The notes under the pieces: model-generated
Databases searched by the model: none
What the model was told of the DNA's origin: nothing
The model's input: the letters and a program-made list of their open reading frames with translations, nothing else
Part shown: one piece after another, positions 3,527 to 23,270 of the stretch
How the letters are laid out: the number at the start of each line of letters is the position of its first letter
Numbering within the stretch: position 1 is the first letter of the stretch
Made by a program: the position numbers and the translations under genes
From: Candidatus Micrarchaeota archaeon
GTDB taxonomy: Archaea; Micrarchaeota; Micrarchaeia; Norongarragalinales; SBBD01
Direction: 5' to 3'
NCBI GenBank assembly: GCA_038046605.1
Contig: JBBSVW010000026.1
Span: forward strand, 1 to 23,270
DNA: 23,270 nt

Positions 3527-6500
3527 CTATGCATATTCCGCTAAGCTGAACTGTTTGACTTTTTCATCCTCAAAAATGCTTTTTATTTCGCGTTCAATTA
3601 GCATCAGCCTTTGCTTAAGGTAATCCGGCAGCTCATAGCGTTCTGAAAGCGATTTCGAGAGCTCCAAATATTTGATAATTCCCCCCTTATTAACCGTGAG
3701 CAGCAATTTGCCGCCGCACTTGAAGCATTTCCCCTGGAGGGGCACGCGGCGGAATTTCATGCCGCAATCAACGCAGCGGAATTTTTGCTTTGAGAATCTG
3801 CGAAGGTTGCCATAAAGATCCGGGAAGAAATGAGATAGGATGATCCGCTCGGTTGCATTGCGCACATCAACGGCGGCAATCCTGCCCATCAAACTAAGTT
3901 CCGCCTCCACCTTCTCATTCATATTGGTCAGCTGCACATACCTGGTTTCTATTGGCCCTTCCAATTTCGCAAAATGCGTGTAATCGATGTTTTCATACTG
4001 CGCAGCCGTTTCAAGCCGGTCCTGGACTTTCCCGATTTTTACCTCTCCGGGCGCTGCCAGATTCAGGCTTGCATGGTAGAATTCAAGGGGGTATTTGCGC
4101 ACGCAATCCATCGCATGCGCCTCATCGTCGATTTCATTGGGATCGAGAATCGTTGTAAGAACGAGAAGGGCGTCCATCTGCCCACCGCGGGTTTCGGGAA
4201 GGTAAAGTTTTGAAAAATTGATAAGCCCATCCAGCATCAGCATGTAGGAAAGCTCATCACCATCGCAGTTGCGCCTAGTTGCGCAGTGCAGGTAGGGATG
4301 CGCAATTATGCCACGCATCACGGAAATTCCAACAATGCGGCATATGATCCCTGCGGAAGTATGGGGGGCAATTGCAATTGCATATTTCCCGATAAGGTCG
4401 TTTGGTGTTTTGGCATTGTAAAATGCGCGCATGCCATATTGGTAAACAAGCAGGTCATCGATGAATTTTGAAACACGAAGGAAATATTCGGCGGCATAAT
4501 CCGAGATGATGATGTCCTGCGGGCGCATTTCCACGACCTGATCCAAATTTGCAATGGGATTCCCATCCAAATCGTGCCCGTAGCCCAATTCCTTTAGTTT
4601 TTCCAGGCTTATTGCCATTTCTGAAGGGATAAAATGGGTTCCAGGGATTTCAGTTGCATCAAACCTGCAGGTGCCGTCACGGAAAACCGAAAGGGAATGC
4701 TTGGAGCGAAGGATGCCTTTTTCCATGGGTTCGGGTGTTTTGGTCGCTGAAATCAGCCCCTGAACGGCCTTTACTTCCGTGGGGTCGAATTCCACCTTCT
4801 TTCTTGCCTTTTCGAATTCCTCCTTTAAATTCACAACCTGCTTTTCATATTTTTGCATTGCCGATCCGCATTTCCTGCATTTTTCCTCCTCCATCCCGCC
4901 GATCCTGTTGCATTTTTGGTTGATGCACTTGGAGCGCCGCTCCGATGGCTCAGAGCATGTTTGGCAAACCCTGCCATAAACGCGCTTTCCGCAAATCGGG
5001 CAGATGGATATTTCCATTTCAGCCTCAATCATCCCATTGCCCTTTTCGGAAAGCTCCTGGTGCGCCTTCACCAGGCCCCTTTGCCTTCCCCCCCACTGGC
5101 CAACCGGAAAGAGGGAATGCACTGGCGGCTTCATGCGCCTCTCCTTTGCCTTCTCGGGCCTTCCCTGCGAGGAGCCGATGTAAATGCCGGCCTTTTTTTG
5201 GATTTTTATTCCGCTTGCATCGTTTACTATTTCCATTGAATCCTTTTCCTCAAAAAAAGCAGAATTGAATTTATCCAACGCAAGATTATCCGTCAGCATC
5301 CCCAGGGTTTTTAGGAGGGCAATGGAATTATCCTTGTCAATTACGATTTCATTTCCCTCAACCTTATGGGGGATGCAAATGCGCTCCAGGAGCTCCTTTT
5401 TTCCCTTGGCCCCCTCCTGCATTGGAATCCTATAGCCCTTCACTTCGAACCATTCCTTGATTAGTTTTCCTCCGGAGAGGAATTGGGCCAGCGCCTGGAT
5501 TTCAATTGATGAAAGGTCGTGCCAAAAATAAGTGAATTTGGGCGCAAGTGGAACACCTAGTTTATGCGAGATGGAAAATGCCTCATCCGCGCTCATCGAT
5601 TCTATTTCAACAAGTGTTTTTGAAACACCCTTTGCCGCAAGCTCCTCCAAATACCACTCCTCGCACCATGCGGATGGGACAAGTGGATGGTTTGATTTCA
5701 GGAAATCCCCGTAATTTACAAGCAGGTCCCCAAGAAATAGGATTTTCTCGACCTCGGTCAATACCTCTTTCGCCTCTTTTTCATCCTTGATTTCGCGCAC
5801 TTCGCCGCTTTTGAGCTTGACTATCGGGCCCATTATTGTTGAGCACGGGGTTGCAATGCATCCTTTTCCGGGCCGCTCGATTTTAAGCTGAGTCCCAAAG
5901 GCGATGAAGCTATCAAGAATTATCATCGTGGCAGGATGCACTGCCTTGCTTGCAATTCCGGTGAATCTGGTCCGGCCATACCGCAATCTAAAGCCGCCCC
6001 TTGCCATGGGATAGGAAAATATCGGCCTTCCGGCAACAATTTCATCGATATATCTTTCCACCGGCCTAAGTTCGGTTTTTGTTGCCGCCTTCTTGGCTAC
6101 TTTAATTAGCGATTCAAGCCAGTCCCATTGCAAATGGTTCTTGCGGGCAATTTTTAGCACCTTGGCGGCCTTTAGGCAAATCCCCTCGGAAACAACAAGG
6201 CACATTCCGCCCCGCACCCGGTTGGATTCCACATTCAGCGTATCCTTGTTGACGTTTATCTCGTAGTCTTCCGTAGGTTCACCGGTTATGCAAACAGGGC
6301 AGCTAACAGTTATATGCCTGATTTCCTCGGCTGTAGGAACGTACTGTCCCGCCCTGGTTTTAACGGCGTAAAGATTGCTCTCCTCAATGTATCTGGCAAT
6401 TTCAGTTTCCGATGGCCGGTAATTGCCCACCTTCAGGATTTGCCTGCAAAAATCCGCAAGCAGGACGGAAAATGCCTGCCCGGTTCCTCCCGCCCCGCGG

Positions 6501-6970
6501 ATTGGCCCTGCAAAATATATTGCAAGGAAATCCGTGCCATCCGCATTCTGCTTGATTCTCACCTGTGAAATCCCTTCAATTGGCGCCGACACCACTCCTT
6601 CAGTGAACACGGCAAGCCCCGTGCGGACTGCCTGGTCGATTAGCTTTTCCTTCCTTTCGGTTTGCGTATCGTAAAAAGAGGGCTTGTATGCCCCCTCAAG
6701 GCAGATCTGCCTGGCAATTTCAAAAACCAGCTCCTCCCGCGACCTATTTTCGCTTAGTTTTTCCATAATTTCCGCAACGCCCTTTGGGCCAACAAGTCCT
6801 TCCACCCTGCTATAAATGTCCTTTGCAGGCCTTGTTTCCACGAAATCCTGGGGGTCTAGGTGCCTGCCCCTTGCCTGCGTTGCCAAGTTCCACTGCTCGT
6901 TAAACTTTCCTTCAAGTTCGGCGAAATACTTTTGCATTTCAGGCGATGCTTCCGGCATAAAAATTACCAT
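3527..6970 (-). CDS. polC: DNA polymerase D large subunit DP2 (start may be ATG at 6958)
   Basis: Motifs EGVVSAPIEGI, YFAGPIRGAGGT, GGFRLRYGR, GRPEKAKER, FRDGTCRFD, catalytic RRNCDGDE, Cys zinc fingers and a C-terminal PIP-like QFSLAEY. No intein. Confidence 0.97.
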   Translation of the reverse strand: MVIFMPEASPEMQKYFAELEGKFNEQWNLATQARGRHLDPQDFVETRPAKDIYSRVEGLVGPKGVAEIMEKLSENRSREELVFEIARQICLEGAYKPSFYDTQTERKEKLIDQAVRTGLAVFTEGVVSAPIEGISQVRIKQNADGTDFLAIYFAGPIRGAGGTGQAFSVLLADFCRQILKVGNYRPSETEIARYIEESNLYAVKTRAGQYVPTAEEIRHITVSCPVCITGEPTEDYEINVNKDTLNVESNRVRGGMCLVVSEGICLKAAKVLKIARKNHLQWDWLESLIKVAKKAATKTELRPVERYIDEIVAGRPIFSYPMARGGFRLRYGRTRFTGIASKAVHPATMIILDSFIAFGTQLKIERPGKGCIATPCSTIMGPIVKLKSGEVREIKDEKEAKEVLTEVEKILFLGDLLVNYGDFLKSNHPLVPSAWCEEWYLEELAAKGVSKTLVEIESMSADEAFSISHKLGVPLAPKFTYFWHDLSSIEIQALAQFLSGGKLIKEWFEVKGYRIPMQEGAKGKKELLERICIPHKVEGNEIVIDKDNSIALLKTLGMLTDNLALDKFNSAFFEEKDSMEIVNDASGIKIQKKAGIYIGSSQGRPEKAKERRMKPPVHSLFPVGQWGGRQRGLVKAHQELSEKGNGMIEAEMEISICPICGKRVYGRVCQTCSEPSERRSKCINQKCNRIGGMEEEKCRKCGSAMQKYEKQVVNLKEEFEKARKKVEFDPTEVKAVQGLISATKTPEPMEKGILRSKHSLSVFRDGTCRFDATEIPGTHFIPSEMAISLEKLKELGYGHDLDGNPIANLDQVVEMRPQDIIISDYAAEYFLRVSKFIDDLLVYQYGMRAFYNAKTPNDLIGKYAIAIAPHTSAGIICRIVGISVMRGIIAHPYLHCATRRNCDGDELSYMLMLDGLINFSKLYLPETRGGQMDALLVLTTILDPNEIDDEAHAMDCVRKYPLEFYHASLNLAAPGEVKIGKVQDRLETAAQYENIDYTHFAKLEGPIETRYVQLTNMNEKVEAELSLMGRIAAVDVRNATERIILSHFFPDLYGNLRRFSKQKFRCVDCGMKFRRVPLQGKCFKCGGKLLLTVNKGGIIKYLELSKSLSERYELPDYLKQRLMLIEREIKSIFEDEKVKQFSLAEYA

Positions 6971-10842: not shown

Positions 10843-10948
10843 GCAGGGGTGGCAGAGATTCCCGCAAGGGGACTGCAACTTGGTCAAATGCGCAGGGCTT
10901 AGGACCCTGTGCCTTAGGGCTGCAAGGGTTCAAATCCCTTCCCCTGCA
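10843..10948 (+). tRNA. tRNA-Leu(TAG) with a 21-nt D-loop intron (10858-10878, position 15/16)
   Basis: Acceptor GCAGGGG/CCCCTGC + A73; anticodon arm CAGGG-CTTAGGA-CCCTG; long variable arm; T arm AAGGG-TTCAAAT-CCCTT. Mature length is 85 nt after removing the intron. Confidence 0.93.
10858..10878 (+). other. tRNA-Leu non-canonical intron (BHB/BHL type)
   Basis: 4-bp helix GCAG(10852-55)/CTGC(10873-76) with 3-nt bulges AG|A and AA|C; inner stem TTCCC-GCAA-GGGGA with a GNRA loop. Confidence 0.88.
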
Positions 10949-11031
10949 CTCGACACCTATAGGGGAGTAACTCCCCTACTCGTGTCGCCTCTACCCCTTT
11001 ATTTACTTCAGCAAATCCCTTCCCCTGCACT
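10931..11031 (+). repeat. Perfect 20-bp direct repeat of the tRNA-Leu 3' end flanking a 61-bp insert
   Basis: CAAATCCCTTCCCCTGCACT at 10931-10950 and 11012-11031. Confidence 0.95.
10951..11011 (+). repeat. Hairpin element copy C
   Basis: CGACAC-cta-TAGGGGAG-taa-CTCCCCTA-ctc-GTGTCG-cctc-TACCCC-tttattta-CTTCA. Confidence 0.85.
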
Positions 11032-14041: not shown

Positions 14042-14156
14042 AACCATTCCACCTGCACAAATTAAGGGCGAATTTGTATATATACCATTTTGAAAGGTTA
14101 AAGATTGGCTTAACATCCGATTTTGAGCCTTGTTGCCTATGCGCTTCCCCCCCTTT

Positions 14157-14169
14157 GAAACCTTTAAAA
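14157..14169 (+). promoter_or_regulatory. Putative BRE-TATA promoter of the tRNA-Tyr/tRNA-Asp pair
   Basis: GAAACCTTTAAAA 61 nt before tRNA-Tyr; the same 13-mer occurs at 3471-3483 (-). Confidence 0.55.
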
Positions 14170-14261
14170 AAGAAGGATGGCATAAATCTATTCCATTCCC
14201 GAGAATACAGCATGTCGGGAAGTAGTTAATCCCGCAGTAGCTCAATCTGGCAGAGCGTCTG

Positions 14262-14355
14262 CGAGCCTCTTTTTCTTTCCCAAAAGAAAAAGACCCTCGG
14301 GAGAAAAAGGAAAGGGTTTTTATCTGGAATATGAATAAAAAGAGGTTACGGCGAA
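14262..14355 (+). other. tRNA-Tyr intron 1 (94 nt, position 30/31)
   Basis: BHB: helix CGTC(14256-59)/GGCG(14350-53), bulges TG|C and AA|A, outer AG/CT, inner stem AGCCTCTTTTT/AAAAAGAGGTT. Confidence 0.85.
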
Positions 14356-14362
14356 ACTGTAG

Positions 14363-14423
14363 TTCGGCTGATCTCGGCCTTCTTTAAAAGGAGTGCAAAA
14401 TGAGGTCGAATCGCTTACCAGAT
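14363..14423 (+). other. tRNA-Tyr intron 2 (61 nt, canonical 37/38)
   Basis: Relaxed BHB: CTGT/CCAG (one mismatch), bulges AG|T and AT|A; inner GATCTC/GAGGTC stem. Confidence 0.85.
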
Positions 14424-14445
14424 ATCAGACGGTTGCCAGTTCAAA

Positions 14446-14547
14446 AGGCCTTGCCTTTCTTTTAGTAAAAGAAAGGCGATGGCGCCGCCAAAGAAAACTC
14501 TTTTGCGGCTCCGCCGAATAATATTATTTATCCGGCTGGGCGGAAAA
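14446..14547 (+). other. tRNA-Tyr intron 3 (102 nt, T-loop 59/60)
   Basis: Relaxed BHB: TTCA/GGAA (one mismatch), bulges AA|A and AA|T, outer helix is the T stem. The exact boundary is ambiguous within the A runs, but the length is fixed by a 7-nt T loop. Confidence 0.8.
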
Positions 14548-14604
14548 TCTGGCCTGCGGGATTTTTGCCTTGGTAGTGTAGTGGTCCAGCATAGGGGCTT
14601 GTCG

Positions 14605-14695
14605 TCGAACCTTTTTCTTTTCTCGAAAAGAAAAAGCACTCCGGAAAAAGAAAAGGAAGTGTGTTTCGCGAATTAGAGAAGGAGGTTCTGCAAAC
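14605..14695 (+). other. tRNA-Asp intron 1 (91 nt, canonical 37/38)
   Basis: BHB helix TTGT(14599-602)/GCAA(14690-93), bulges CG|T and AC|A, inner GAACCT/AGGTTC. Confidence 0.88.
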
Positions 14696-14716
14696 AGCCC
14701 TTGACCCGGGTCCGAA

Positions 14717-14796
14717 TGACACAAAGGGGGATGTTTCCCCCTATCGTGTCGCCTTACCCCCTCTTGATTGAAGGGAAAATGGCGTTCATACGGAAA
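14717..14796 (+). other. tRNA-Asp intron 2 (80 nt, T-loop 59/60), containing hairpin element copy D (14717-14762)
   Basis: Helix TCCG(14711-14)/CGGA(14791-94), bulges AA|T and AA|T. The 5' part is TGACAC-aa-AGGGGGA-tgtt-TCCCCCT-atc-GTGTCG-cct-TACCCCC. Confidence 0.85.
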
Positions 14797-14811
14797 TCCC
14801 GGCCAAGGCGC

Positions 14812-14823
14812 TTTTTCTTTTTT
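14812..14823 (+). terminator. Oligo-T archaeal terminator after tRNA-Asp
   Basis: TTTTTCTTTTTT immediately downstream of the discriminator base. Confidence 0.6.
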
Positions 14824-14846
14824 AATAACACTAACCGCTAGTCGGT

Positions 14847-14945
14847 TCAAAACTCAATCGTCTTCCCTTCCTTAGGAATCCTCACATTCTTATGCAGTTC
14901 CTTGAAATCCTCTGCCCGATCCGTGTGAATTGGAATAGCAACAAG
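14847..14945 (-). pseudogene. C-terminal remnant of a probable MBL-fold/beta-CASP (RNase J-like) hydrolase
   Basis: Frame reads LVAIPIHTDRAEDFKELHKNVRIPKEGKTIEF*. IPIHT followed by a V-x-I-P-x-x-G-x-x-I-E-F end resembles that family's C-terminus. There is an in-frame stop upstream at 14979-14981 and no ATG. Confidence 0.5.
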
Positions 14946-14998: not shown

Positions 14999-17080
14999 CT
15001 AAATGGAGTCTTCCATGCGCATTTCGGTTTTATCAATCAGCGGCACAATTATTTTATTTATTTTTTTTATGTAATTTTCGCAAATGCTAACGTCTTCCTT
15101 TGATTGGTTAATAATTCGACCGCTCGATCCGTGCCCATAGGGACCACGAATAAACGATATTTTACTTAAGGCTTGTTGTAATTCGCCTAAGTTTGCAAAT
15201 CCATTAGGTTTAACAAAAATATTTTCAAAACAATCCGTCCAATTATTTTTTTGGGAAATAATATTTATTTCCTGCCCTAGGTCGATAAAATCTTCAAATT
15301 GCCCATTTTCCTTTTTCTTTTTTTCATTTATATAACCTTGAATGTCGCCGGGGATTCTGCTTTTTTCCCATTTTGAATCAATTATTTGTAAAGTATTTCT
15401 TATCATTATACTTATATTTCTTTCAAGATTTTGAATTTTATCGAATATTTCTTCTTCCTCCATGCTCTCCCAGAAACTAACACCAACCTTCCGTTTGATT
15501 TCGACACCAATTTTTTTTGCTAGATCCTTCCTTGCTCCCTCATTGGTAGTACTTAATTTGATTTCCCTTATTGCGGTTTCATCCAATTCCATGAAATATT
15601 CGCCAATTACTTCCACATATTTCGATAATGCCTCTCTTGACGGTATTCGCTCAATATGAGACAAAATGGGTTCAAACAAATAGAGTAATACGGGCACACC
15701 TGCATTACCAAAAACATAATTTCGCGCGTTTTCTTTAGTTATTTTTTCATAGATAGATTTGAAATATCTGCTAATAGTATTTGCAGTCCTATTTCGTTGC
15801 GTCATTTTATTCTCGTCATAAAGGGGGTTATTGATCCCCCTTAAATTTGGAAGCAAATCTCGGGTTATTCTCGAGTTTTTTATACCCGAACAAAATGCAC
15901 TAATGGAAATTGACGATTCTGTTTTTTGCCCTTTTTTTGGAATGTAAATCATGTTTTCAAATGGATTGTTTTTTAAATCTGCAAAATTTGCAGGGGGGGA
16001 ATCTATCATTTTTACAATATTTGAAATTAACCCTTCTTCAGTTTCGCAATACGGATCAGCCTCACCTTCCAAGTCCCAGATTAAATCAGATGAAACAGGT
16101 TTTTGCTCCTTATTAATATCGAGAAATAAACTCCTCTCCTCATTTGGTTTAAGAAGAGTTAATGCTATACAAGGGACTAAATCAGATTGTTTTGCCCGTA
16201 CTGCACCAAATAACCTGTGTTGACCATCAATAACCCAACAATTTTGCCCGGTAATATTCAAAAAAACAAATTCCCAATCTGGTGTTTTTTTATATATTTT
16301 ATAATAATAAGAATCGTTGATGGGACCCCGTAAGGATAAAATAATATTTGATGGAAAATAACCTCCGGTATCAACATATTTCTCTATTCGCTTGAGTTTA
16401 TTTTTTTCGAGAGTCCTCTGATAAAATTCCTCGTCTCCCCGCCCTCTTCTTGCAACATATGATATTTTTATAAGGTCCAATGGATTTGCATAGAAAATAA
16501 AGGCAAAACGCCCACCAAGTTTCGTTTTGATCGCAGGGATTTGAAAAGGTTCACTAATAAAGGGTATATTGGAATATTTTGAAATTTCGTTAAGTATGCT
16601 ATAAACCGCATTTTCCTTAATCTTATCAGATAAATCGTTATAATAATCTAAAAACTGCTCATCGATCAAAAAGATTTTATCGGGACCATTTTGTAAAATT
16701 GTTTCCCCTTGAGGCGTAAGCCCCATTCGTTTTATTGCCAATATGGGAATTATTTTCTCAAAATCTTTGTCTTTTTTATTAGAAAAATGAGTAATTATCG
16801 TATTTACTTTATCCCGCCATTCACGTATTTCACTAACCTGCAATTTCTTTAATTTCCCCCGACTTTTACCAGATTTGCATTCAATAATAAACAAGTTTTT
16901 TCCAAATTTGGCTATGCAATCTATTTCAATTTCTTCCGATGAAATATGTATTGTTTCCTTTGTTTTAACTTCAGAAAAGCCAGCTCTTTCAAATAGACTT
17001 TTAATTTCTATCTCGAAGTTATCTCCAACTTCAACAGAAGATTCCTCATCCTCAACTTGGTCTTCCATGAAATCTACCAT
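14999..17080 (-). CDS. DGQHR (DndB/ParB-like) domain protein with N-terminal PD-(D/E)xK nuclease-like and C-terminal HEPN-like domains
   Basis: N-terminal FE...EIDCIAK...IIECKS; central YQR, FPSNII, VIDGQHRL, LFLDINKEQKPV; C-terminal LE..I..MI..L.....WEK..IP and RGPYGH (Rx4H). Confidence 0.85.
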   Translation of the reverse strand: MVDFMEDQVEDEESSVEVGDNFEIEIKSLFERAGFSEVKTKETIHISSEEIEIDCIAKFGKNLFIIECKSGKSRGKLKKLQVSEIREWRDKVNTIITHFSNKKDKDFEKIIPILAIKRMGLTPQGETILQNGPDKIFLIDEQFLDYYNDLSDKIKENAVYSILNEISKYSNIPFISEPFQIPAIKTKLGGRFAFIFYANPLDLIKISYVARRGRGDEEFYQRTLEKNKLKRIEKYVDTGGYFPSNIILSLRGPINDSYYYKIYKKTPDWEFVFLNITGQNCWVIDGQHRLFGAVRAKQSDLVPCIALTLLKPNEERSLFLDINKEQKPVSSDLIWDLEGEADPYCETEEGLISNIVKMIDSPPANFADLKNNPFENMIYIPKKGQKTESSISISAFCSGIKNSRITRDLLPNLRGINNPLYDENKMTQRNRTANTISRYFKSIYEKITKENARNYVFGNAGVPVLLYLFEPILSHIERIPSREALSKYVEVIGEYFMELDETAIREIKLSTTNEGARKDLAKKIGVEIKRKVGVSFWESMEEEEIFDKIQNLERNISIMIRNTLQIIDSKWEKSRIPGDIQGYINEKKKKENGQFEDFIDLGQEINIISQKNNWTDCFENIFVKPNGFANLGELQQALSKISFIRGPYGHGSSGRIINQSKEDVSICENYIKKINKIIVPLIDKTEMRMEDSI

Positions 17081-17451
17081 ATAATTTTCTTTTTAATAAA
17101 CGTATCTATTTGATGTTCCCATATGCGGATTACCCTCCAGCCAACTTTCTTTAGCCGCATTGTCTTTTCTTTATCCCGTTCAACATTCCTTTTCAATTTT
17201 GGGACCCAATATTTGCGGTTGCTTTTTGGGATATGACCGTGCTTAGGACAGTTATGCCAAAAGCATCCATCAATGAATATTGCTGTTTTTTTGGATGGAA
17301 TGGCAATGTCGATTTTTTCCTTGCCGTAATGAAGGCGATATTTGACCCCTGATTTCCTCAAGATTGCTCGAAACAGTTTTTCGGGTAGGGTATGCTTTGA
17401 CTTTATCGCGGACATTATTTTTGAACGTATTTTCTTTTTTACAGGATCCAT
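17074..17451 (-). CDS. vsr: Very short patch repair endonuclease
   Basis: MD......RSKIMSAIKSKHTLPE, IDIA, FIDGCFWHNCPKH, YWVPKLKRNVERD, GWRVIRIWEH. Start set at ATG 17451; the stop overlaps the DGQHR gene start (ATGGTAG). Confidence 0.95.
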   Translation of the reverse strand: MDPVKKKIRSKIMSAIKSKHTLPEKLFRAILRKSGVKYRLHYGKEKIDIAIPSKKTAIFIDGCFWHNCPKHGHIPKSNRKYWVPKLKRNVERDKEKTMRLKKVGWRVIRIWEHQIDTFIKKKIIW

Positions 17452-17458
17452 CCCCCAT

Positions 17459-18331
17459 TCACTTCTCGAATACCGATTCGATGAGCTTGTCAATTTTTGG
17501 GATCGTAGTATCCATTTTCACGCTTTGTTCAAATAGCCCCTTTGATGCCGTATGCAGCCTAAGGCTTAGGGTCAGCCCATTATCGAAATTAATCAATATT
17601 GTGCTATTGCTTGCTCTTGTTATTTCCATATGATCTGGCATGGGGATATTTGTAAAATCAATGATCTCGACTTTATGGGCAGAATTCTTGACCATGTAAA
17701 ACGGGATAGTGCCAGTTAAAAAATGGAAAAAGGTAGGCGCGCTGCTTTTGTTCAAATTCAAAAAATCCATAACCAATTTGGTCAGGGGGAAATACAATTT
17801 CTTATTTATAAACTCCATATCTTTGTTTTTTATCTCCTCGAAAGTCTTTGCTGCTGGGAATGATTTTTTTGCTTCAAGGTAAAACTTGGACCAAATCCCT
17901 TCATATTGCAAATCATATTTAGCCAATACGCGGGAGTCATTTACACCACATTGCTCAGGCAGCCTCGTCAGCCTCGGGTGCTTTAGCGCGGGATAGTTAT
18001 TTTTTATGGAAAGATTGATTGAGCGGCCATTGCTAAAAGCTAAACGTATATCGGTAGGGTCCCCAGTCACACCACTGCTATCTGGCAGCCTATCAAGAAT
18101 TACCTTGATTTTTCGGCTGCCAATTTTTTTCTCCAACCAACGGACAGTTATCTCCGCACACTTTGAAAAATTTTCCCTTATTTTATCACTTAATCTAGAG
18201 TAATACTTCTCGTCAACTGCATTGTCCTTTTTTGCCCGTTCAGTCAAATCGCATTTTTCAAAGTGCGCCAGTATTTCCTTGCAGATGATGTATTCCAATG
18301 TTCTTCCGTTATCATCAGATGCGGTTGGCAT
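17459..18331 (-). CDS. Type II restriction endonuclease, HaeIII family (predicted GGCC)
   Basis: SDDNGRTLEY, DSSGVTGDPTDI, LSIKNNYPALKHPRL and LRLHTAS resemble HaeIII-family motifs; divergent from a HaeIII-like MTase. Start set at ATG 18331. Confidence 0.8.
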   Translation of the reverse strand: MPTASDDNGRTLEYIICKEILAHFEKCDLTERAKKDNAVDEKYYSRLSDKIRENFSKCAEITVRWLEKKIGSRKIKVILDRLPDSSGVTGDPTDIRLAFSNGRSINLSIKNNYPALKHPRLTRLPEQCGVNDSRVLAKYDLQYEGIWSKFYLEAKKSFPAAKTFEEIKNKDMEFINKKLYFPLTKLVMDFLNLNKSSAPTFFHFLTGTIPFYMVKNSAHKVEIIDFTNIPMPDHMEITRASNSTILINFDNGLTLSLRLHTASKGLFEQSVKMDTTIPKIDKLIESVFEK

Positions 18332-18501
18332 AAGCCTCAACAGGGTATATTCTCCCGCGGTTTTTATTCGTATTGCTTGAAATCGCGATTTGTGGGGGGG
18401 ATCAAATACCACCAGAAATGACCTCCCGCAATGTACTTAAATAGGATAAACCCTCAAAATAAGTATGAGGTCGAGTGTGGGGGATGAAAAAGGCGCATAC
18501 A

Positions 18502-19515
18502 ATGAAAGTAATATCTTTGTTTACTGGCTGCGGCGGCTTAGACCTGGGTTTCGAACATGCAGGGTTCGAAATAGCTTATGCTAATGATTATGACCCTGTG
18601 ATGAAGGATACCTTTGAAAAGAACCATAGCGTCGAATTGGACCTTAGATCCATTGTCAATGTGAAATCTGACGAGATACCTGATGCTGAAGGCATAATTG
18701 GTGGCCCTCCCTGCCAAAGCTGGAGCCTTGCAGGTGCCATGAGGGGCATTGAAGATCAGCGGGGGCAATTATTTTACGAATATATCCGCATCCTAAAAGA
18801 TAAGCAACCCTTGTTCTTTGTTGCGGAAAATGTGCCCGGCATCGTTTCAACAACGCATATTGGCGAATTCACGAAAATATTGGAAAAATTCAGCAGCCTT
18901 GGCTATAATGTCAATTATGCCATCCTTGATGCACGGAATTATGGTGTGCCACAAGAAAGAAAGAGAGTTGTTGTTGTCGGATATCATAAGAAATTGGGAA
19001 AAACCTTTGCATTCCCCGAACCCAATAGCAAATGGATTACCCTTAAAGAAGCGATAGGGGATTTGCCAGATGCTAAACCAGCCAAGGAAAAAAACAAAAC
19101 AAATGGCGAATTAGGAATTGCTAACCAGGAATACATGAATGGAGGTTTCTCAACAATGTACTTGTCCCGAAATAGGCGCAGGGAATGGGGGGAACAGTCA
19201 TTTACCATCCAAGCTGGAGGCAGGCATGCACCACTTCATCCAAGCTCCTCAAAGATGAGGAAGGTTGAGGAAGACAAATGGGTTTTTGATGGCGACAACC
19301 CTAAATACCGCAGAATGTCAGTTCGTGAATGTGCCAGGATTCAAACTTTCCCAGATGATTTCATTTTCTACTACAACAACATTGCCGATGGCTACAAGAT
19401 GATAGGGAATGCTGTGCCAGTAAAGCTTGCGGAAGCGGTAGCAAAACAGATAATGTCAGATCTATCAAAGACCGATGTAGCAAAGGACACGCAAAAAATA
19501 AAAATTATCAATTAA
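18502..19515 (+). CDS. dcm: C5-cytosine DNA methyltransferase, M.HaeIII-like
   Basis: SLFTGCGG (motif I), GGPPCQSWS (IV), ENV (VI), QERKRV (VIII), RECARIQTFP, IGNAVP. The target-recognition region FSTMYLSRNRRREW..QSFTIQAGGRHAPLHP resembles M.HaeIII. Start could also be 18484. Confidence 0.95.
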   Translation: MKVISLFTGCGGLDLGFEHAGFEIAYANDYDPVMKDTFEKNHSVELDLRSIVNVKSDEIPDAEGIIGGPPCQSWSLAGAMRGIEDQRGQLFYEYIRILKDKQPLFFVAENVPGIVSTTHIGEFTKILEKFSSLGYNVNYAILDARNYGVPQERKRVVVVGYHKKLGKTFAFPEPNSKWITLKEAIGDLPDAKPAKEKNKTNGELGIANQEYMNGGFSTMYLSRNRRREWGEQSFTIQAGGRHAPLHPSSSKMRKVEEDKWVFDGDNPKYRRMSVRECARIQTFPDDFIFYYNNIADGYKMIGNAVPVKLAEAVAKQIMSDLSKTDVAKDTQKIKIIN

Positions 19516-19567
19516 CAATTCCTCATTCCAGTGAATAAAAGGCAAATAGCTATTAGGCGAGAGTTCG

Positions 19568-20638
19568 ATGAAAATATTGAACGTTATAAAAGAAAAACTC
19601 CCTTATGATTATTCATTAATTGTTTTAACATTCTTAACAGCAGCCATAATCATAATTTTAACCGCTTTTTATCCAAACCCTTACCTTATTGCAATCATAA
19701 GCGTTTGTGTTTTGATTTTAACAATGATGAAGGAATATAGAGATCAAAAAAAAGACGATATTGAAGAAGCTCTTTCAAAACTTTCAAATAAAAAAATGGA
19801 CGAAATTCATTCTCAAATTACAATCAATGAAATCGAAAGTAAAAAACGAGAAAAAGTAATAATGAAGTTGATGAAAAAAGGAGTGATTAATGAAGATGAC
19901 ATGATAGCAGCATTAAGCCAAGAAGCGTATTTTATTTTTTACCATTTTAACAGAGCATTTGATAATAAATATGTAAAATATTTACCCGAAAATAGAAAAT
20001 TGGCCGCTCGAATATTGGAAAAATTGGGATTTGTACCAGTAGGAGCATTTTCTGGATCATATTTTTTTCACATAATTAATTCAAGAGCATTGCCTACCGA
20101 TTTGCAAAATATTGGAATGCTAGAAGCGTACATAAAAAAAGAGGCAGTTAATCATTGGACTGAATTAGATTCAAACATTAAAACAAACCCATCATTATAC
20201 GAAAAATATACAGAAAATGATAAAACAAGAGGAAACTTGGTATATTTCCTCGGAAAAATATTTCCATCAAATTTAAGCATGGGGTATCTTAATTTTTCAT
20301 CATTCGATACGAGATTTTTACCTCATTTATCCAAATTTTTAAATTCAGAAAAAATAGAAATTAATGTTAAAAAATTTAATGATCTAATTTCCTTGGCTTC
20401 TCTTGATTTCTTTATTGATTCAATTGAACGAAAAGATAGGGCTAAAATTTTAGAAAATGAAACGGAAATGAGAGCTGAATTGGGAATAAAAAAAATCTAC
20501 GATTATGCAAATTTATCAAAGGAAGATTTAATTAGAGTATTATCAAAATATTTTACTAATGAAAAATCAATTAAATTTTCCGATATAATATTGCAATCTG
20601 CAAATGATTCCTGTCCGATAATCCAAGAATTCGCATAA
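19568..20638 (+). CDS. Hypothetical AT-rich protein with two N-terminal TM helices
   Basis: 356-aa ORF; hydrophobic LIVLTFLTAAIIIILTAFY and YLIAIISVCVLILTMM, then a charged linker and a soluble domain I do not recognise. Confidence 0.8.
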   Translation: MKILNVIKEKLPYDYSLIVLTFLTAAIIIILTAFYPNPYLIAIISVCVLILTMMKEYRDQKKDDIEEALSKLSNKKMDEIHSQITINEIESKKREKVIMKLMKKGVINEDDMIAALSQEAYFIFYHFNRAFDNKYVKYLPENRKLAARILEKLGFVPVGAFSGSYFFHIINSRALPTDLQNIGMLEAYIKKEAVNHWTELDSNIKTNPSLYEKYTENDKTRGNLVYFLGKIFPSNLSMGYLNFSSFDTRFLPHLSKFLNSEKIEINVKKFNDLISLASLDFFIDSIERKDRAKILENETEMRAELGIKKIYDYANLSKEDLIRVLSKYFTNEKSIKFSDIILQSANDSCPIIQEFA

Positions 20639-20993
20639 TTGAACAAGTGTTTTTTATATGGATTTATGGAGATTATTATTGCAAGGGCATGCAAATAAAT
20701 TATCAAACGAAAATAAAATAGTTCAATAGGTAGGTAAAAAAAGACTTGCTGAATTATTTTTTTGGGGGTTTTTGCATATTAAACGATATTATAACTTTAA
20801 ACTCAAACCGTTCGAAAAAATAAAACACATTTTTCTAAAAACCCATTTAAAGCTCCAATTCATTCCCTTTCCATTGGCAAATCCGATATCTTTCAGAGGT
20901 GAAAAAATGCCTCCATCAACCGTCAAAACTCTAACTGAATCGATTCCCCAAGTTAAAAAAATTTAGGATTCGAATTGGTTATAACCTCGCAAT

Positions 20994-21707
20994 CTATTTT
21001 CTTTTTGCCAAAACGTTTTCTATTGACCATTTCAAATCTAGATCCATGTCAAGAATATTTCCTAATGCCCAGCGAAAATAATCTTCAGGAATTTCAGAAA
21101 GTAGTTTTCCGCGGTGTTTTCCGAAAGGCATTTTTTGAATTATAATCGGTGAATCGATATAATCTATCATAGCCTTTAAACTGTCTTTTTCGCCATTTTT
21201 TAAATATAATTCGATTCCTGCGCCAAGAACTTTAGCAGTAACTAAAGCGTCAGGAAGTGCTCTATGCATATTTTTACCAGCTACATCAACCTTAAGTTTT
21301 AACCAGTATCGTAAAACTTGGTTTCCATATGCCGGTGCATTCGGCCAAAGATGTCTAGAGAGCCTATAAGTGCATATCCACGGTTGTTTGGCAATCATAG
21401 GTAAAAATGAGCGGTCAAATTCGGCATTGTGTGCTGCGATCGCCGTTACATTACCCACTAAGCTTTGTAAGTGTTCGGTAATTGATTCGATGCTGGGGCT
21501 TTTGGATACGTCCTCATCAGTCAAGTGGTGTATGGCAGAAGCTTCTGGCGGAATAGGTATACCGGGGTTAATGATTGATTCCCAGGTGTCTTCTATTTTC
21601 CCATCCCTAAGCAATACTACACCAATTTCTACAACTCGATCAACTTGCGAGTTTACCCCAGTTGTTTCAGTATCTACCACCAAATACGCATCGTCAGCTA
21701 TGCTCAT
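20994..21707 (-). CDS. DEDDh 3'-5' exonuclease, exodeoxyribonuclease X-like, with C-terminal MPFGKH domain
   Basis: VDTETTG, AHNAEFD, ICTYRL, HRALPDA; C-terminal KMPFGKHRGKLLSEIPEDYFRW. Confidence 0.9.
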   Translation of the reverse strand: MSIADDAYLVVDTETTGVNSQVDRVVEIGVVLLRDGKIEDTWESIINPGIPIPPEASAIHHLTDEDVSKSPSIESITEHLQSLVGNVTAIAAHNAEFDRSFLPMIAKQPWICTYRLSRHLWPNAPAYGNQVLRYWLKLKVDVAGKNMHRALPDALVTAKVLGAGIELYLKNGEKDSLKAMIDYIDSPIIIQKMPFGKHRGKLLSEIPEDYFRWALGNILDMDLDLKWSIENVLAKRK

Positions 21708-21763
21708 TTATCTCACATCTTTTTATTTTTCTTCCATCAATCTTATTTTTACCTTGAATAGGC

Positions 21764-23270
21764 CTATTTTTCTTTTTGATACTGCTCCACGATGCTCCGC
21801 CACAGTACCTCATCATTTACCGTTTCAACCAGCTGTTTAAGCAGAAGCTCAGGCTCTTTTTTCCAACCAAGAACAATGTTTGCATGGTTCTCAAAGGTCT
21901 CAAATACCTTTCCTTTAGGTTGGGCATCGTCCAGATCGGAATCAACCCTTCCAAGATTGATCCTCCCTCTTAATCCAACGAATCCCACAGCAACCTTTAT
22001 TTTTTCAGGTGCAATTCTAGCCATGATTGAATAAGCCCGTTTATAGATTTCAAGTTGCCTCCTGTGCTCCGAAGCCCGATCGGTATTTTTATCCGTCTTC
22101 CAGTCCACAAGCAAGTATTCGCCGCCCTTTCTGAAAACCGCATCTATCTTGCCTTTGAACTTCACCTCAAGATCAGTTTTCATCAATTTGCTAAGGGGCA
22201 TATCTATGTCAATCTCAGCACCAACAACCTCGGGATAGTCTTCCTTAATTTCCTTAACCATGCTTTCGATATTCTGTTCGAAGGCTTTTACGTCCGCATC
22301 AACCTGGTGCGGCTCGCCCTTTAAGATCTGCTCAGCTATTTTGTGTACTCTTGAACCTACGCCAAGCGCTGGTGAGAAATCAGTAATGCCAAGGATCCTA
22401 TCCTTGAAGTATTCGTAAGGGTCAGTTCTCAGCCCAGAAAAGGACAAATGGTCCAGCCTTTCAAAATGATTCTTGACAAAGTCAAGGAGCCATTCTTTCC
22501 TATCTGCGAGTAATTCCTGTGCCCCTTCCGTTTCTCCTGCCAGGAAAAGCCCATATGCTTTCTTTGCCCTCTCTGAATAATCTGCACGCTCAATTCCCTG
22601 CACTTCAATTGCTTTTTCTTCTATCATCGAGTTAAGGTAGACCTCTGGTTTATCAGTAAGGATTACAAGCTTGTTCTTGGCTCGCGTCATTGCCACAAAG
22701 TTGATTCTGAGAGTTTCCTCCTCGAGTTCTTCTCTTGCATCGATGCCCTTTGTGTTCAGAATAGCTTCAACAACGTAATCCTGGAAGTCTGTCCTCCCCC
22801 TAGGCTTGGATGGAAGGTAAATTACCGCATCGAATTCCAGCCCTTTGGCCTTATGGACTGTGGATACAGTGACTTTCTTCCTTGGTCCGCCCATATCTAC
22901 AATAAGATCTGATGAATTCAAGTAAGTCGTGAGGTTTTCCATATTCATCTTGTCAATGGCTCTCACGGCTTCCCTAAATGTCTTCTGCACTGAAATGGCT
23001 GCAAGAAGGTAGTCTTTTCCATAAGTAACTGAAACGGGATAGATGATCATTTCAAATATTTTGTCAATATCCTCGATCGTCTTGACTGACTCTTTCATTT
23101 TTCTGAAAGCCGGGCACTTTAAGTAAATTTCCTGGATCGTTAGTTCTTTAGAGGCCGATAGTGTGAAGGCGTCCTTAATGGGCATTGGGAAGAATGGCGT
23201 GAACATAGCCGCCCGTAAATCGTTCACATCATCAGTAACAAAGCTCCGCAGGAACCTGATTGTATGGTTT
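21764..23270 (-). CDS. UvrD/Rep-family helicase fused to PD-(D/E)xK nuclease (AddA/AdnAB-like); 5'-partial
   Basis: Helicase motif V STVHKAKGLEFD and VI FVAMTRAK; nuclease LSFS, GSRVH, GKIDAVF, LVDWKT, QLEIY. The frame is open to the window end. Confidence 0.9.
   Translation of the reverse strand, partial: NHTIRFLRSFVTDDVNDLRAAMFTPFFPMPIKDAFTLSASKELTIQEIYLKCPAFRKMKESVKTIEDIDKIFEMIIYPVSVTYGKDYLLAAISVQKTFREAVRAIDKMNMENLTTYLNSSDLIVDMGGPRKKVTVSTVHKAKGLEFDAVIYLPSKPRGRTDFQDYVVEAILNTKGIDAREELEEETLRINFVAMTRAKNKLVILTDKPEVYLNSMIEEKAIEVQGIERADYSERAKKAYGLFLAGETEGAQELLADRKEWLLDFVKNHFERLDHLSFSGLRTDPYEYFKDRILGITDFSPALGVGSRVHKIAEQILKGEPHQVDADVKAFEQNIESMVKEIKEDYPEVVGAEIDIDMPLSKLMKTDLEVKFKGKIDAVFRKGGEYLLVDWKTDKNTDRASEHRRQLEIYKRAYSIMARIAPEKIKVAVGFVGLRGRINLGRVDSDLDDAQPKGKVFETFENHANIVLGWKKEPELLLKQLVETVNDEVLWRSIVEQYQKEK

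What the first reader, a model, noticed from the sequence alone, without database searches (positions are those of the whole stretch)
14262..14695. Homologous intron bodies at different positions in different tRNAs
Seen: Tyr intron 1 (30/31) and Asp intron 1 (37/38) are collinear: CGAGCC/CGAACC, CTTTTTCTTT, AAAAGAAAAAG, CTC(C)GG, AAAAAG(G/A)AAAGG, GAAT, GAGGTT; lengths 94 and 91 nt. The 4-nt BHB partner is tuned to each host exon (GGCG vs GCAA). Tyr intron 3 has a related hairpin, GCCTTTCTTTT-AGT-AAAAGAAAGGC (14453-14477). Inference: a second mobile module that moves between splice positions, or a structured cargo that repeatedly invades introns as safe sites.
Basis: partly seen in the sequence, partly recalled or inferred. 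Interest (0 to 1): 0.7.

Follow-up and report, generated by a model that had tools for sequence, protein, structure and literature searches.

The report
Shared triplex-type repeat inside tRNA introns
Two neighbouring tRNA genes of a tiny groundwater archaeon are interrupted at different places by copies of one small folded repeat that is scattered through the introns of many tRNA genes in its relatives, which gives a concrete handle on how archaeal tRNA genes acquire and reshuffle introns.

Summary
Tyr intron 1 (14262-14355, 94 nt, position 30/31) and Asp intron 1 (14605-14695, 91 nt, 37/38) are homologous: 70 of 85 aligned bases identical, and 0 of 3000 dinucleotide shuffles reach the score. 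Removing the predicted introns gives canonical tRNA-Tyr(GTA) and tRNA-Asp(GTC).

The organism is a Micrarchaeota (DPANN) MAG with an ARMAN-2-type epsilon2 splicing endonuclease. The shared body, "module A", is a dispersed repeat. It gives 10 strong hits in this genome and matches in 26 of 41 related genomes. In introns it sits in the D-arm, at 27-31, 37/38, 53/54 and in the T-loop, always in the sense orientation. It also lies in a tRNA leader, tRNA trailers and a 16S rRNA gene.

Between close relatives the body is swapped or replaced, while the short host-specific tail that builds the bulge-helix-bulge splice motif stays.

Each module holds a pyrimidine/purine hairpin followed by a purine tract that co-varies as the mirror image of the hairpin's purine arm. 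That is the signature of class II intrastrand triplex repeats.

Intron families shared between tRNAs are published for Thermoproteales. This scan has already noted triplex-type tRNA-intron repeats in other DPANN genomes. Verdict: a real new variant of a known kind; how it moves is unresolved.

The parts
14231..14561 (+). tRNA-Tyr(GTA) gene with three introns. Exons 14231-14261, 14356-14362, 14424-14445, 14548-14561.
   Evidence: The exons joined by coordinate fold as tRNA-Tyr(gta) in ARAGORN. Neither ARAGORN nor Rfam finds the unspliced gene.
14262..14355 (+). Tyr intron 1, 94 nt, position 30/31; a module A copy of subtype A1.
   Evidence: nhmmer E 1.2e-16; 68.3 bits.
14268..14293 (+). Module A hairpin in Tyr intron 1: pyrimidine arm 14268-14278, loop 14279-14282, purine arm 14283-14293.
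   Evidence: Perfect 11-bp hairpin.
14299..14316 (+). Second purine tract (Pu2) of Tyr intron 1, the mirror image of the purine arm; linker 14294-14298.
   Evidence: mirror score 10, direct score 6.
14350..14355 (+). Host-specific 3' tail of Tyr intron 1: a 4-nt partner of exon bases 14256-14259, then two bulge bases.
   Evidence: Read. The tail is kept in orthologous Tyr introns of G003-G008 whatever the body.
14363..14423 (+). Tyr intron 2, 61 nt, position 37/38; not module A.
14446..14547 (+). Tyr intron 3, 102 nt, T-loop (59/60; the boundary can shift by 1-2 nt). It holds module B: hairpin 14453-14477 and mirror purine tract 14490-14497.
   Evidence: (nhmmer E 2.3e-22).
14567..14810 (+). 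tRNA-Asp(GTC) gene with two introns. Exons 14567-14604, 14696-14717, 14798-14810.
   Evidence: The exons joined by coordinate fold as tRNA-Asp(gtc).
14605..14695 (+). Asp intron 1, 91 nt, position 37/38; a module A copy of subtype A3.
   Evidence: E 6.4e-17; 62.2 bits.
14611..14636 (+). Module A hairpin in Asp intron 1: pyrimidine arm 14611-14621, loop 14622-14625, purine arm 14626-14636.
   Evidence: Perfect 11-bp hairpin.
14643..14659 (+). Second purine tract (Pu2) of Asp intron 1, a perfect mirror of the purine arm; linker 14637-14642.
   Evidence: mirror score 12 over 12 bases, direct score 8.
14690..14695 (+). Host-specific 3' tail of Asp intron 1: a 4-nt partner of anticodon-loop bases 14599-14602, then two bulge bases.
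   Evidence: Read. The tail is kept in G003-G007 and in the metagenome variant that lacks the body.
14718..14797 (+). Asp intron 2, 80 nt, T-loop; a third family (module C).
   Evidence: The same module is in the T-loop introns of C31 and C55 and behind the window's tRNA-Leu.

Best explanation
The two introns are ordinary protein-spliced (bulge-helix-bulge) archaeal tRNA introns. Their bodies are copies of one dispersed repeat of about 80 nt, here called module A.

A module consists of:
- a perfect 9-12 bp pyrimidine/purine hairpin;
- a 4-8 nt linker;
- a second purine tract that mirrors the hairpin's purine arm, the layout of a class II (purine-motif) intrastrand triplex repeat;
- a small covarying stem;
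- a purine-rich 3' part that pairs back to the 5' end.

Because the module folds on itself and its two ends pair, it extends the inner helix of the splice motif without disturbing it. A few host-specific bases at each junction, above all a 4-nt partner of the last exon bases, build the motif. The epsilon2 splicing endonuclease, which tolerates non-canonical positions, should then remove the whole insert.

The module persists only where the transcript is discarded: introns, leaders, trailers and rRNA inserts. Between close relatives its copies are gained, lost, truncated and overwritten by one another. I take this turnover to happen in DNA, by ectopic recombination or gene conversion between copies and by an unknown insertion route.

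Shown: homology, splice positions, spread, body swapping under fixed junction pieces, mirror covariation, presence of the endonuclease.
Inferred: splicing itself, turnover at the DNA level, a three-stranded fold.
For: Homology well beyond chance. The spliced exons give canonical tRNAs.

Census:
- 10 nhmmer hits with E < 1e-4 in this genome; 9 lie in tRNA genes in the sense orientation and 1 does not.
- The covariance model matches 26 of 41 related genomes, with 10-25 copies per genome in the genus.
- Of 67 curated copies in seven genomes, 58 lie inside tRNA genes, all in the sense orientation, at about 24 host sites. The other 9 lie elsewhere.

Body versus junction pieces:
- Orthologous Tyr and Asp introns keep their tails but carry different subtypes or no module.
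- Of 39 full-length copies that have an ortholog in the set, 16 are most similar to a copy at another site and 23 to their ortholog.
- The G003 Tyr copy and the G004 Asp copy differ at 3 places in about 83 nt, read. The orthologous T-loop introns of the same two genomes differ at about 12 of 112 places, read.
- Metagenome contigs show a replaced body with kept junction pieces, and a different subtype behind 75 identical bases.

Mirror rule:
- 46 of 55 distinct tract pairs score higher as mirror than as direct repeat, 7 lower, 2 equal.
- The mean mirror score is 9.58. Re-pairing the tracts gives 7.73 (sd 0.20), and 0 of 2000 re-pairings reach the observed value. The direct score shows no signal: 1525 of 2000 re-pairings reach it.
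- In 19 more distant genomes, 22 of 27 distinct pairs are higher as mirror, 1 lower, 4 equal.

Endonuclease: a 388-aa protein matches the ARMAN-2 epsilon2 enzyme, PDB 4FZ2, over its full length at E 3.5e-126.

DNA-level hints: an antisense copy lies in the 5' leader of tRNA-Ser(GGA) on C62. No reverse transcriptase was found in this 90.7%-complete genome.
Against: - No RNA data exist, so neither splicing nor the fate of the intron was observed.
- All 58 intronic copies are in the sense orientation. This is also what an RNA-level function or an RNA-mediated route would give.
- 23 of 39 copies are closest to their ortholog, so much of the pattern is plain vertical descent.
- The short module-less introns of G004, G007 and G008 may be collapsed modules and not empty sites, so the direction of change is unknown.
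- Copies are related by descent. The counts are not independent events, and the orientation and mirror tallies overstate their significance.
- Host assignment for several copies rests on my own simple tRNA finder or on reading by eye. For three host labels the position was not determined.
- RNA folding gives only modest z-scores (-2.0 to -4.0). RNAalifold on 14 copies found no convincing consensus.
- Purine-motif triplexes are, from recall, poor in RNA, and the fold is untested in either nucleic acid.
Confidence: 0.65

Rival explanations
1. Convergent low-complexity hairpins. The two introns only look alike because both hold a T-rich/A-rich hairpin that helps the splice motif fold.
For: The hairpin arms are low-complexity. 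Weak reverse-strand and cross-family hits show how easily such tracts match.
Against: The alignment stays significant after the hairpin is removed: z = 4.75, 0 of 3000 shuffles. The blocks are collinear over the whole length in 14 or more copies. Profile hits reach E 1e-15 to 1e-18.
Confidence: 0.03
2. Whole-intron transposition, as proposed for Thermoproteales. [quoted passage not shown]
For: [quoted passage not shown]
Against: The junction pieces are specific to the host and are kept when the body changes. Copies also occur outside any splice motif, in a leader, in trailers and beside unknown RNAs. Truncated forms with only the hairpin and the second purine tract are common.
Confidence: 0.12
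3. The module is a functional RNA carried by introns, for example a stable circular intron RNA or a folding aid for splicing. It is kept by selection at the RNA level and spreads only by duplication of host genes and gene conversion.
For: 58 of 58 intronic copies are in the sense orientation. The small stem after the hairpin keeps pairing through different sequences in at least five subtypes, read. Single-sequence folds are more stable than shuffles, z = -2.0 to -4.0.
Against: Turnover is high, with frequent truncation and outright absence in close relatives. There is an antisense copy in a leader. The co-varying mirror tract has no ordinary base-pairing meaning in RNA. No Rfam family matches.
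Confidence: 0.15
4. The module is a miniature transposon moved by a resident transposase or integrase.
For: It is a dispersed short repeat with pairing ends. One IS200/IS605-type Y1 transposase gene lies about 1 kb from a tRNA gene with a duplicated 3' end. Duplicated tRNA 3' ends bracket other modules.
Against: Across the 40 relatives searched, the Y1 transposase was not found in G001, G002, G003, G005 or G006, which have 10-25 copies. It is present in G008 and G010, which have none. Its flanks are G+C-rich hairpins unlike the module. No tyrosine integrase and no reverse transcriptase were found in this genome. I saw no target duplication around module A. Other transposase families were not searched.
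Confidence: 0.05

Closest known systems
Transposed tRNA intron families of Thermoproteales (Fujishima et al. 2010, Mol Biol Evol 27:2233). The paper itself was not seen; it is known to me through PMC4090602 section 17 and PMC3239211 section 17 (passages) and through the re-analysis in bioRxiv 10.64898/2026.10.13.758758 section 2.5.
   Same: [quoted passage not shown] Broad-specificity splicing endonuclease. Mechanism unknown.
   Different: The lineage (Micrarchaeota, DPANN) and the enzyme type (epsilon2, not alpha2-beta2) differ. Here the exchangeable unit is the intron body and not the whole intron. Copies also lie in a leader, trailers and an rRNA gene. The body has a triplex-type mirror architecture.
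Disrupted tRNA genes of ARMAN-2 (Candidatus Micrarchaeum acidiphilum) and its epsilon2 EndA (PMC3239211, passages; PMC3488258, passages; PDB 4FZ2).
   Same: Same phylum. The endonuclease is a full-length homologue. Intron positions 37/38, 53/54 and 59/60 recur.
   Different: The ARMAN-2 introns described in those passages are short (13 and 25 nt). The passages I read mention no shared repeat family. Here introns are 60-250 nt and built from repeat modules.
Class II (purine-motif) intrastrand triplex repeats of bacteria: PIT / TMECO (Holder et al. 2015, PMC4666352, passages read).
   Same: Pyrimidine arm, loop, purine arm, loop, then a second purine arm that mirrors the first. A dispersed multi-copy repeat tied to local sequence variability, sometimes in inverted pairs.
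   Different: TMECO is G+C-rich with 9-nt arms, lies between genes in proteobacteria, and was shown to form a DNA triplex in vitro. These modules are A+T-rich with 9-13 nt arms, archaeal, sit inside stable-RNA genes, and their fold is untested.
tRNA gene disruption by integrating elements (Sugahara et al. 2012, PMC3293823, abstract read).
   Same: Extra copies of tRNA ends beside inserted DNA occur in this genome too.
   Different: No recombinase lies between the repeats here. The inserts are 60-200 nt modules, and this concerns modules B and C more than module A.

Membership tests
Archaeal bulge-helix-bulge tRNA introns | Removing the insert restores a canonical cloverleaf tRNA. | tested here: met
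   ARAGORN calls tRNA-Tyr(gta) and tRNA-Asp(gtc) on the exons joined by coordinate.
Archaeal bulge-helix-bulge tRNA introns | Two 3-nt bulges holding the splice sites, separated by a 4-bp helix and flanked by helices. | tested here: met
   Read. In Tyr, 14256-14259 pairs with 14350-14353. In Asp, 14599-14602 pairs with 14690-14693. Each helix has one G-U. The inner helix has one bulged base (Tyr) or one mismatch (Asp). No program scored the motif.
Archaeal bulge-helix-bulge tRNA introns | A splicing endonuclease able to cut at non-canonical positions is encoded. | tested here: met
   One 388-aa EndA gene. It aligns over its full length to ARMAN-2 epsilon2 EndA, PDB 4FZ2, at E 3.5e-126. I did not check the specificity-loop lysine.
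Archaeal bulge-helix-bulge tRNA introns | The intron is actually excised from the transcript. | not testable with these tools
   No RNA run holds the stretch.
Transposed tRNA intron families (Thermoproteales type) | Closely similar introns in tRNAs of different isotypes within one genome. | tested here: met
   Module A lies in the Tyr, Asp, Cys, Pro, Val, Arg, Leu and Ser genes of this genome.
Transposed tRNA intron families (Thermoproteales type) | The related introns sit at different positions. | tested here: met
   Positions 30/31 and 37/38 in the window. D-loop, about 27, 53/54 and T-loop elsewhere. Positions outside the window are approximate.
Transposed tRNA intron families (Thermoproteales type) | The whole intron is the repeated unit. 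| tested here: not met
   The junction pieces are host-specific and are kept while the body changes.
Class II intrastrand triplex repeats (PIT / TMECO) | Pyrimidine arm, loop, complementary purine arm, loop, then a second purine arm that mirrors the first. | tested here: met
   46 of 55 distinct pairs favour mirror over direct. The re-pairing control gives 0 of 2000. In other genera, 22 of 27 pairs favour mirror.
Class II intrastrand triplex repeats (PIT / TMECO) | Forms a three-stranded structure in vitro. | not testable with these tools
   No tool here predicts triplexes. Oligonucleotide CD, NMR or melting is needed.
Class II intrastrand triplex repeats (PIT / TMECO) | The G+C-rich TMECO consensus of proteobacteria. 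| tested here: not met
   The arms are A/T-rich with single G/C interruptions. Same architecture, no sequence relation.
Miniature transposons (MITEs / IS200-IS605 derivatives) | A cognate transposase whose presence tracks the copies. | tested here: not met
   The distribution of the Y1 transposase does not follow module counts. Other transposase families were not searched.
Miniature transposons (MITEs / IS200-IS605 derivatives) | Terminal inverted repeats with a fixed target-site duplication. | tested here: inconclusive
   The module ends pair, but that is also what the splice motif needs. I saw no duplication at module A. The T-loop introns of family B repeat 4-5 bases of the T-loop at their 3' end.

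The most novel reading that the evidence does not exclude
The module is an archaeal, A+T-rich counterpart of bacterial intrastrand triplex repeats. Its three-stranded fold would form in DNA that is single-stranded during heavy tRNA transcription or during replication. That fold would provoke breaks, template switches or gene conversion, which copy the module into the hairpin loops of other stable-RNA genes. On this reading the repeat is the vehicle by which DPANN tRNA and rRNA genes gain and enlarge introns, and the tolerant epsilon2 endonuclease makes each insertion harmless.
Probability: 0.25. Interest if true: 0.85.

Novelty: new variant of a known kind. Interest (0 to 1): 0.58.

Why it matters
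How archaeal tRNA introns arrive is an open question. [quoted passage not shown]

This genus of Micrarchaeota offers a second, cleaner system:
- The repeat unit is short and well defined.
- Its junction pieces can be told apart from its body.
- Near-identical strains differ in which subtype fills one intron.
- The unit carries a testable structural code, the mirror purine tract.

That turns "intron transposition" into experiments that can be done with oligonucleotides, with the already crystallised endonuclease, and with long-read population metagenomes.

Practical point: the standard tRNA finders miss these genes altogether. ARAGORN and Rfam found 1 tRNA in the window, which holds at least 3.

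Tried and rejected
- Rfam at gathering and at E <= 10 over 14150-14900: no family fits, only chance microRNA-like hits. Rfam on five loci with non-tRNA copies: only the 16S rRNA was recognised.
- RNAalifold on 14 copies gave a weak 8-pair consensus at -1.4 kcal/mol, which I do not trust because the low-complexity tracts are misaligned. Column-wise covariation counts were therefore not run. I used per-copy tract extraction instead.
- Y1 transposase as the mobiliser: rejected on its distribution and its flanks.
- Reverse transcriptase and tyrosine integrase: none found in this 90.7%-complete genome.
- Sequencing runs: no RNA holder is listed, so nothing can be said on expression, splicing or circular introns.
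- My first tRNA finder gave 4543 candidates and was useless until filtered to 68. Even then it misses genes with unusual T-arms, so "no tRNA found" rows were read by eye.
- I first took the equal numbers of sense and antisense module B hits (9 and 10 of 24 rows) as proof of inverted DNA insertion. I dropped that argument.
Their splice positions therefore rest on reading by eye.
- The identity and exact intron position of the tRNA on C55 (minus strand) could not be resolved by eye.
- Literature searches for triple helix or mirror repeats together with archaeal tRNA introns found nothing relevant. Searches for tRNA introns in Micrarchaeota or DPANN found no description of intron repeat families. 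Supplementary tables of the cited papers could not be seen and may hold intron lists that bear on this.
Full report
WHAT IS THERE

The window is contig C26 of a 1.64-Mb, 106-contig genome that is 90.7% complete. The large subunit of DNA polymerase D at 3527-6970 is 61-79% identical to proteins of MAGs titled Candidatus Micrarchaeota, one of them titled Norongarragalinales. The host is therefore a DPANN archaeon, not a member of the Thermoproteales.

ARAGORN and Rfam see a single tRNA in the window and nothing at 14150-14900. Reading the sequence shows two heavily interrupted genes:
- tRNA-Tyr, 14231-14561, with three introns;
- tRNA-Asp, 14567-14810, with two introns.

Joining the exons by coordinate gives canonical tRNA-Tyr(gta) and tRNA-Asp(gtc) in ARAGORN.

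At both introns the last four exon bases before a 3-nt bulge pair with four bases near the 3' end of the intron, and a second 3-nt bulge follows. This is the standard bulge-helix-bulge layout (read).

The genome encodes one splicing endonuclease of 388 aa. It aligns over its full length with the ARMAN-2 epsilon2 enzyme, PDB 4FZ2, at E 3.5e-126. That enzyme was shown to cut both strict and relaxed motifs at non-canonical positions (PMC3239211 and PMC3488258, passages read).

IS THE RESEMBLANCE REAL

Yes.
- The two introns share 70 identities in 85 aligned columns; 0 of 3000 dinucleotide shuffles reach the score (z = 6.2).
- After the low-complexity hairpin is cut off, the remaining 3' parts still give z = 4.75 and 0 of 3000.

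A DISPERSED REPEAT

A profile of the shared body ("module A") finds 10 places in this genome at E < 1e-4.
- Nine lie inside tRNA genes, in the sense orientation: Tyr, Asp, Cys, Pro(TGG), Val(CAC), Arg(CCT), Leu(CAA), Ser(CGA) and one unresolved long-arm tRNA.
- One lies elsewhere.
- Weaker copies sit in Pro(CGG) and in a tRNA on C54.

A sequence-only covariance model matches 26 of 41 related genomes at E <= 0.001.
- The seven genomes of the genus hold 10-25 copies each.
- Three genomes of other families in the order hold up to 37-39.
- The two genomes of a sister genus, G008 and G010, hold none. G010 is only 68% complete.

I fetched the listed places of G001-G006 and curated 67 copies: 11 from this genome and 56 from fetched loci. 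This is not a full census of those genomes.
- 58 copies lie within tRNA genes, all in the sense orientation, at about 24 host sites.
- By offset from the 5' end or by reading, the sites fall in the D-arm (about 12-21), the anticodon stem (27-31), 37/38, 53/54 and the T-loop. For three host labels the position was not determined.
- Nine copies lie elsewhere:
  - one antisense copy between a promoter-like box and the 5' end of tRNA-Ser(GGA) in this genome (C62);
  - two between a tRNA 3' end and the start of a hisS-like gene, at the same place in G005 and G006;
  - one inside the 16S rRNA gene of G006, confirmed as SSU rRNA by Rfam;
  - one flanked by a duplicated promoter plus tRNA 5' fragment;
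  - four beside sequences I could not name.

One tRNA gene holds three module A copies in G001 and G006 but one in this genome.

BODY VERSUS JUNCTION PIECES

The orthologous Tyr-Asp loci of relatives are the most telling evidence.

The Tyr intron at 30/31 is present in all seven relatives examined, always with the same kind of 3' tail.
- It holds module A in G000, G003, G005 and G006, in three different subtypes.
- In G004 it is only 31 nt, in G007 20 nt and in G008 39 nt.

The Asp intron at 37/38 carries:
- subtype A3 in G000 and G006;
- A2 in G003;
- A1 in G004 and G005;
- a 62-nt short form in G007;
- no intron at all in G008.

In G003 the Tyr intron has A1 and the Asp intron A2; in G005 it is the reverse.

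The G003 Tyr copy and the G004 Asp copy differ at three places in about 83 nt. That is closer than the orthologous T-loop introns of the same two genomes. G004 is also the genome whose Tyr intron has lost, or never had, the body.

Among 45 full-length copies, 39 have an ortholog in the set. Of these, 23 are most similar to their ortholog and 16 to a copy at another site (the two Val copies carried different labels and are counted as orthologs).

Public metagenome contigs add two cases.
- In run X6, a contig identical to the window over 14530-14604 continues with a different module subtype.
- In run X1, a low-depth contig (depth 2.7, 30 letters on its shorter side) replaces 14608-14687 by 24 other letters and keeps both junction pieces.

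Contigs of mixed communities can come from relatives and not from strains, so these two cases are supporting evidence, not proof.

Together this says that the intron site and its few host-specific bases are the stable part. The roughly 80-nt body is exchangeable cargo.

ARCHITECTURE

Every module starts with a perfect 9-12 bp hairpin, with a pyrimidine arm 5' and a purine arm 3'. Several versions exist: the interrupting C/G sits at different places, and both arms always change together.

After a 4-8 nt linker comes a second purine tract. It is not a copy of the purine arm but its mirror image.
- Of 63 copies with a perfect hairpin (4 of 67 had none), there are 55 distinct tract pairs.
- The mirror score beats the direct score in 46 pairs, is lower in 7 and equal in 2.
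- Re-pairing first and second tracts among copies lowers the mean mirror score from 9.58 to 7.73 (sd 0.20). 0 of 2000 re-pairings reach the observed value.
- The direct score shows no specificity: 1525 of 2000 re-pairings reach it.
- In 23 loci of 19 genomes from other genera and families, 22 of 27 distinct pairs favour the mirror, 1 the direct reading, and 4 are equal. Further arm patterns appear there.

Copies are related by descent, so these are not independent trials. But at least nine different asymmetric arm patterns obey the rule.

Copying cannot create a mirror repeat, so it has to be maintained. The one nucleic-acid structure I know that demands it is a purine-motif triple helix, in which the third strand runs antiparallel to the purine strand.

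This is the layout of the bacterial class II intrastrand triplex repeats (PIT / TMECO). Those form a DNA triplex in vitro and mark variable regions (PMC4666352, passages read).

Ordinary RNA folding prefers a long closing helix between the 5' pyrimidine tract and a 3' purine tract, plus an inner hairpin (z = -2.0 to -4.0). That would prolong the inner helix of the splice motif.

The small stem around the second purine tract keeps pairing through different sequences in at least five subtypes (read). It cannot co-exist with a full triplex. More than one fold is therefore likely, and none has been tested.

MECHANISM

The best-supported reading: the module is a self-folding repeat that is harmless wherever the transcript is thrown away. 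The tolerant endonuclease removes it together with the intron. Copies are gained, lost, truncated and overwritten at the DNA level.

Evidence for a DNA-level process:
- the antisense copy in a leader;
- the copies outside any splice motif;
- the absence of a reverse transcriptase.

Evidence that leaves an RNA-level role open:
- the strict sense orientation of the intronic copies;
- the covarying stem.

A resident Y1 transposase is not the mover. It was not found in five of the six relatives in the genus, which are rich in modules, and it is present in the two genomes without modules. Its flanks are unrelated. No tyrosine integrase was found. Other transposase families were not searched.

I cannot tell whether the short module-less introns are empty sites or collapsed modules. 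The 20-nt Tyr intron of G007 looks like the two ends of a module joined together.

WHAT IS KNOWN

Intron families shared by different tRNAs at different positions were described for Thermoproteales and called intron transposition. I know this only through reviews and a re-analysis.

Highly disrupted tRNA genes and the epsilon2 enzyme are known for ARMAN-2. The introns described in the passages I read are short (13 and 25 nt).

My literature searches found no description of repeat families or of triplex-type architecture in Micrarchaeota tRNA introns. Supplementary tables were not available.

Within this scan the phenomenon is not new. Earlier notes on other DPANN genomes describe hairpin-plus-purine-tail modules in tRNA and rRNA introns, and several already read them as triplex-type repeats. 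Two notes on another piece of this same genome report related introns and copies of tRNA 3' ends. I reached the mirror rule before reading those notes and tested it here on this genus. One of the notes made me drop my inversion argument for module B.

VERDICT

The feature is a new variant of a known kind: tRNA-intron families shared between genes, here with an exchangeable triplex-type body, in a phylum where this is not in print as far as my searches reach. The mechanism and the three-stranded fold remain inferences.

Noticed in passing
window 10843-11029: tRNA-Leu(TAG) appears to start at 10843, with an insert of about 21 nt in the D-loop. ARAGORN's call from 10864 would then start inside that insert. 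The complete gene is followed by a copy of module C and then by a second copy of the last 17 bases of the tRNA (11013-11029). The same layout (complete tRNA, module, repeated 3' end) occurs on C57, C68 (two extra copies) and C9.
   Followed up: partly
window 14446-14547 and 14718-14797; G000 C1, C27, C62, C70, C30, C79, C106: T-loop introns of 80-250 nt are built from further repeat families. One is a two-armed palindromic family (module B); its left and right arms each hold a hairpin plus a mirror tract. Another is a G/C-hairpin family (module C).
   Followed up: partly
G000 C62:1-250, C70:12125-12366, C30:1675-1884, C27:6074-6461, C79:12515-12788, C106:10288-10543, C62:3356-3743: A double-hairpin unit of about 50 nt sits nested exactly in the apical loop of the pyrimidine/purine hairpins of modules A and B, apparently in either orientation. 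It is a repeat inside a repeat inside an intron.
   Followed up: no
L091 (G006 C17:18800-20150), L044 (G001 C69), G000 C54:7048-7302: One tRNA gene seems to carry four or five inserts in G006 and G001: at about 12/13, about 31, near the anticodon, 53/54 and 59/60. Three of them are module A copies. The same gene in this genome has one. This rests on reading by eye only.
   Followed up: partly
G000 C106:16906-17307 and C1:1-1797: The 16S rRNA gene is broken across two contig ends just where G006 has a module copy. Relative to G006 it also has two inserts of about 640 and 700 nt (C1:157-797 and 959-1675), possibly rRNA introns. A tRNA-Ala with a 141-nt T-loop intron follows at C1:2346-2558.
   Followed up: no
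L083 (G006 C14:78580-79650): A short module A copy is flanked on both sides by the same promoter-like stretch plus the first 19 bases of a tRNA. Only the second copy continues into a whole gene. This mirrors, at the 5' side, the duplicated 3' ends.
   Followed up: no
window 14999-23270: Directly behind tRNA-Asp lies a low-G+C stretch (0.29-0.39 in places). It holds a DndB-like protein, a C-5 cytosine methyltransferase and a UvrD/PD-(D/E)XK helicase-nuclease. It looks like a defence island next to a tRNA pair.
   Followed up: no
G000 C9:24297-24650: A solitary IS200/IS605-type Y1 transposase gene (149 aa) has G+C-rich flanking hairpins and no TnpB partner. It lies about 1 kb from a tRNA with a duplicated 3' end and is unrelated to the modules.
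   Followed up: yes
L108 (G004 C42), L086 and L089 (G006 C3, C5), L101 (G005 C12), G000 C89:47190-47245: Module copies sit inside or beside conserved non-coding stretches that Rfam does not recognise. One has box C/D-like motifs upstream. These may be other small RNA genes that host the repeat.
   Followed up: partly
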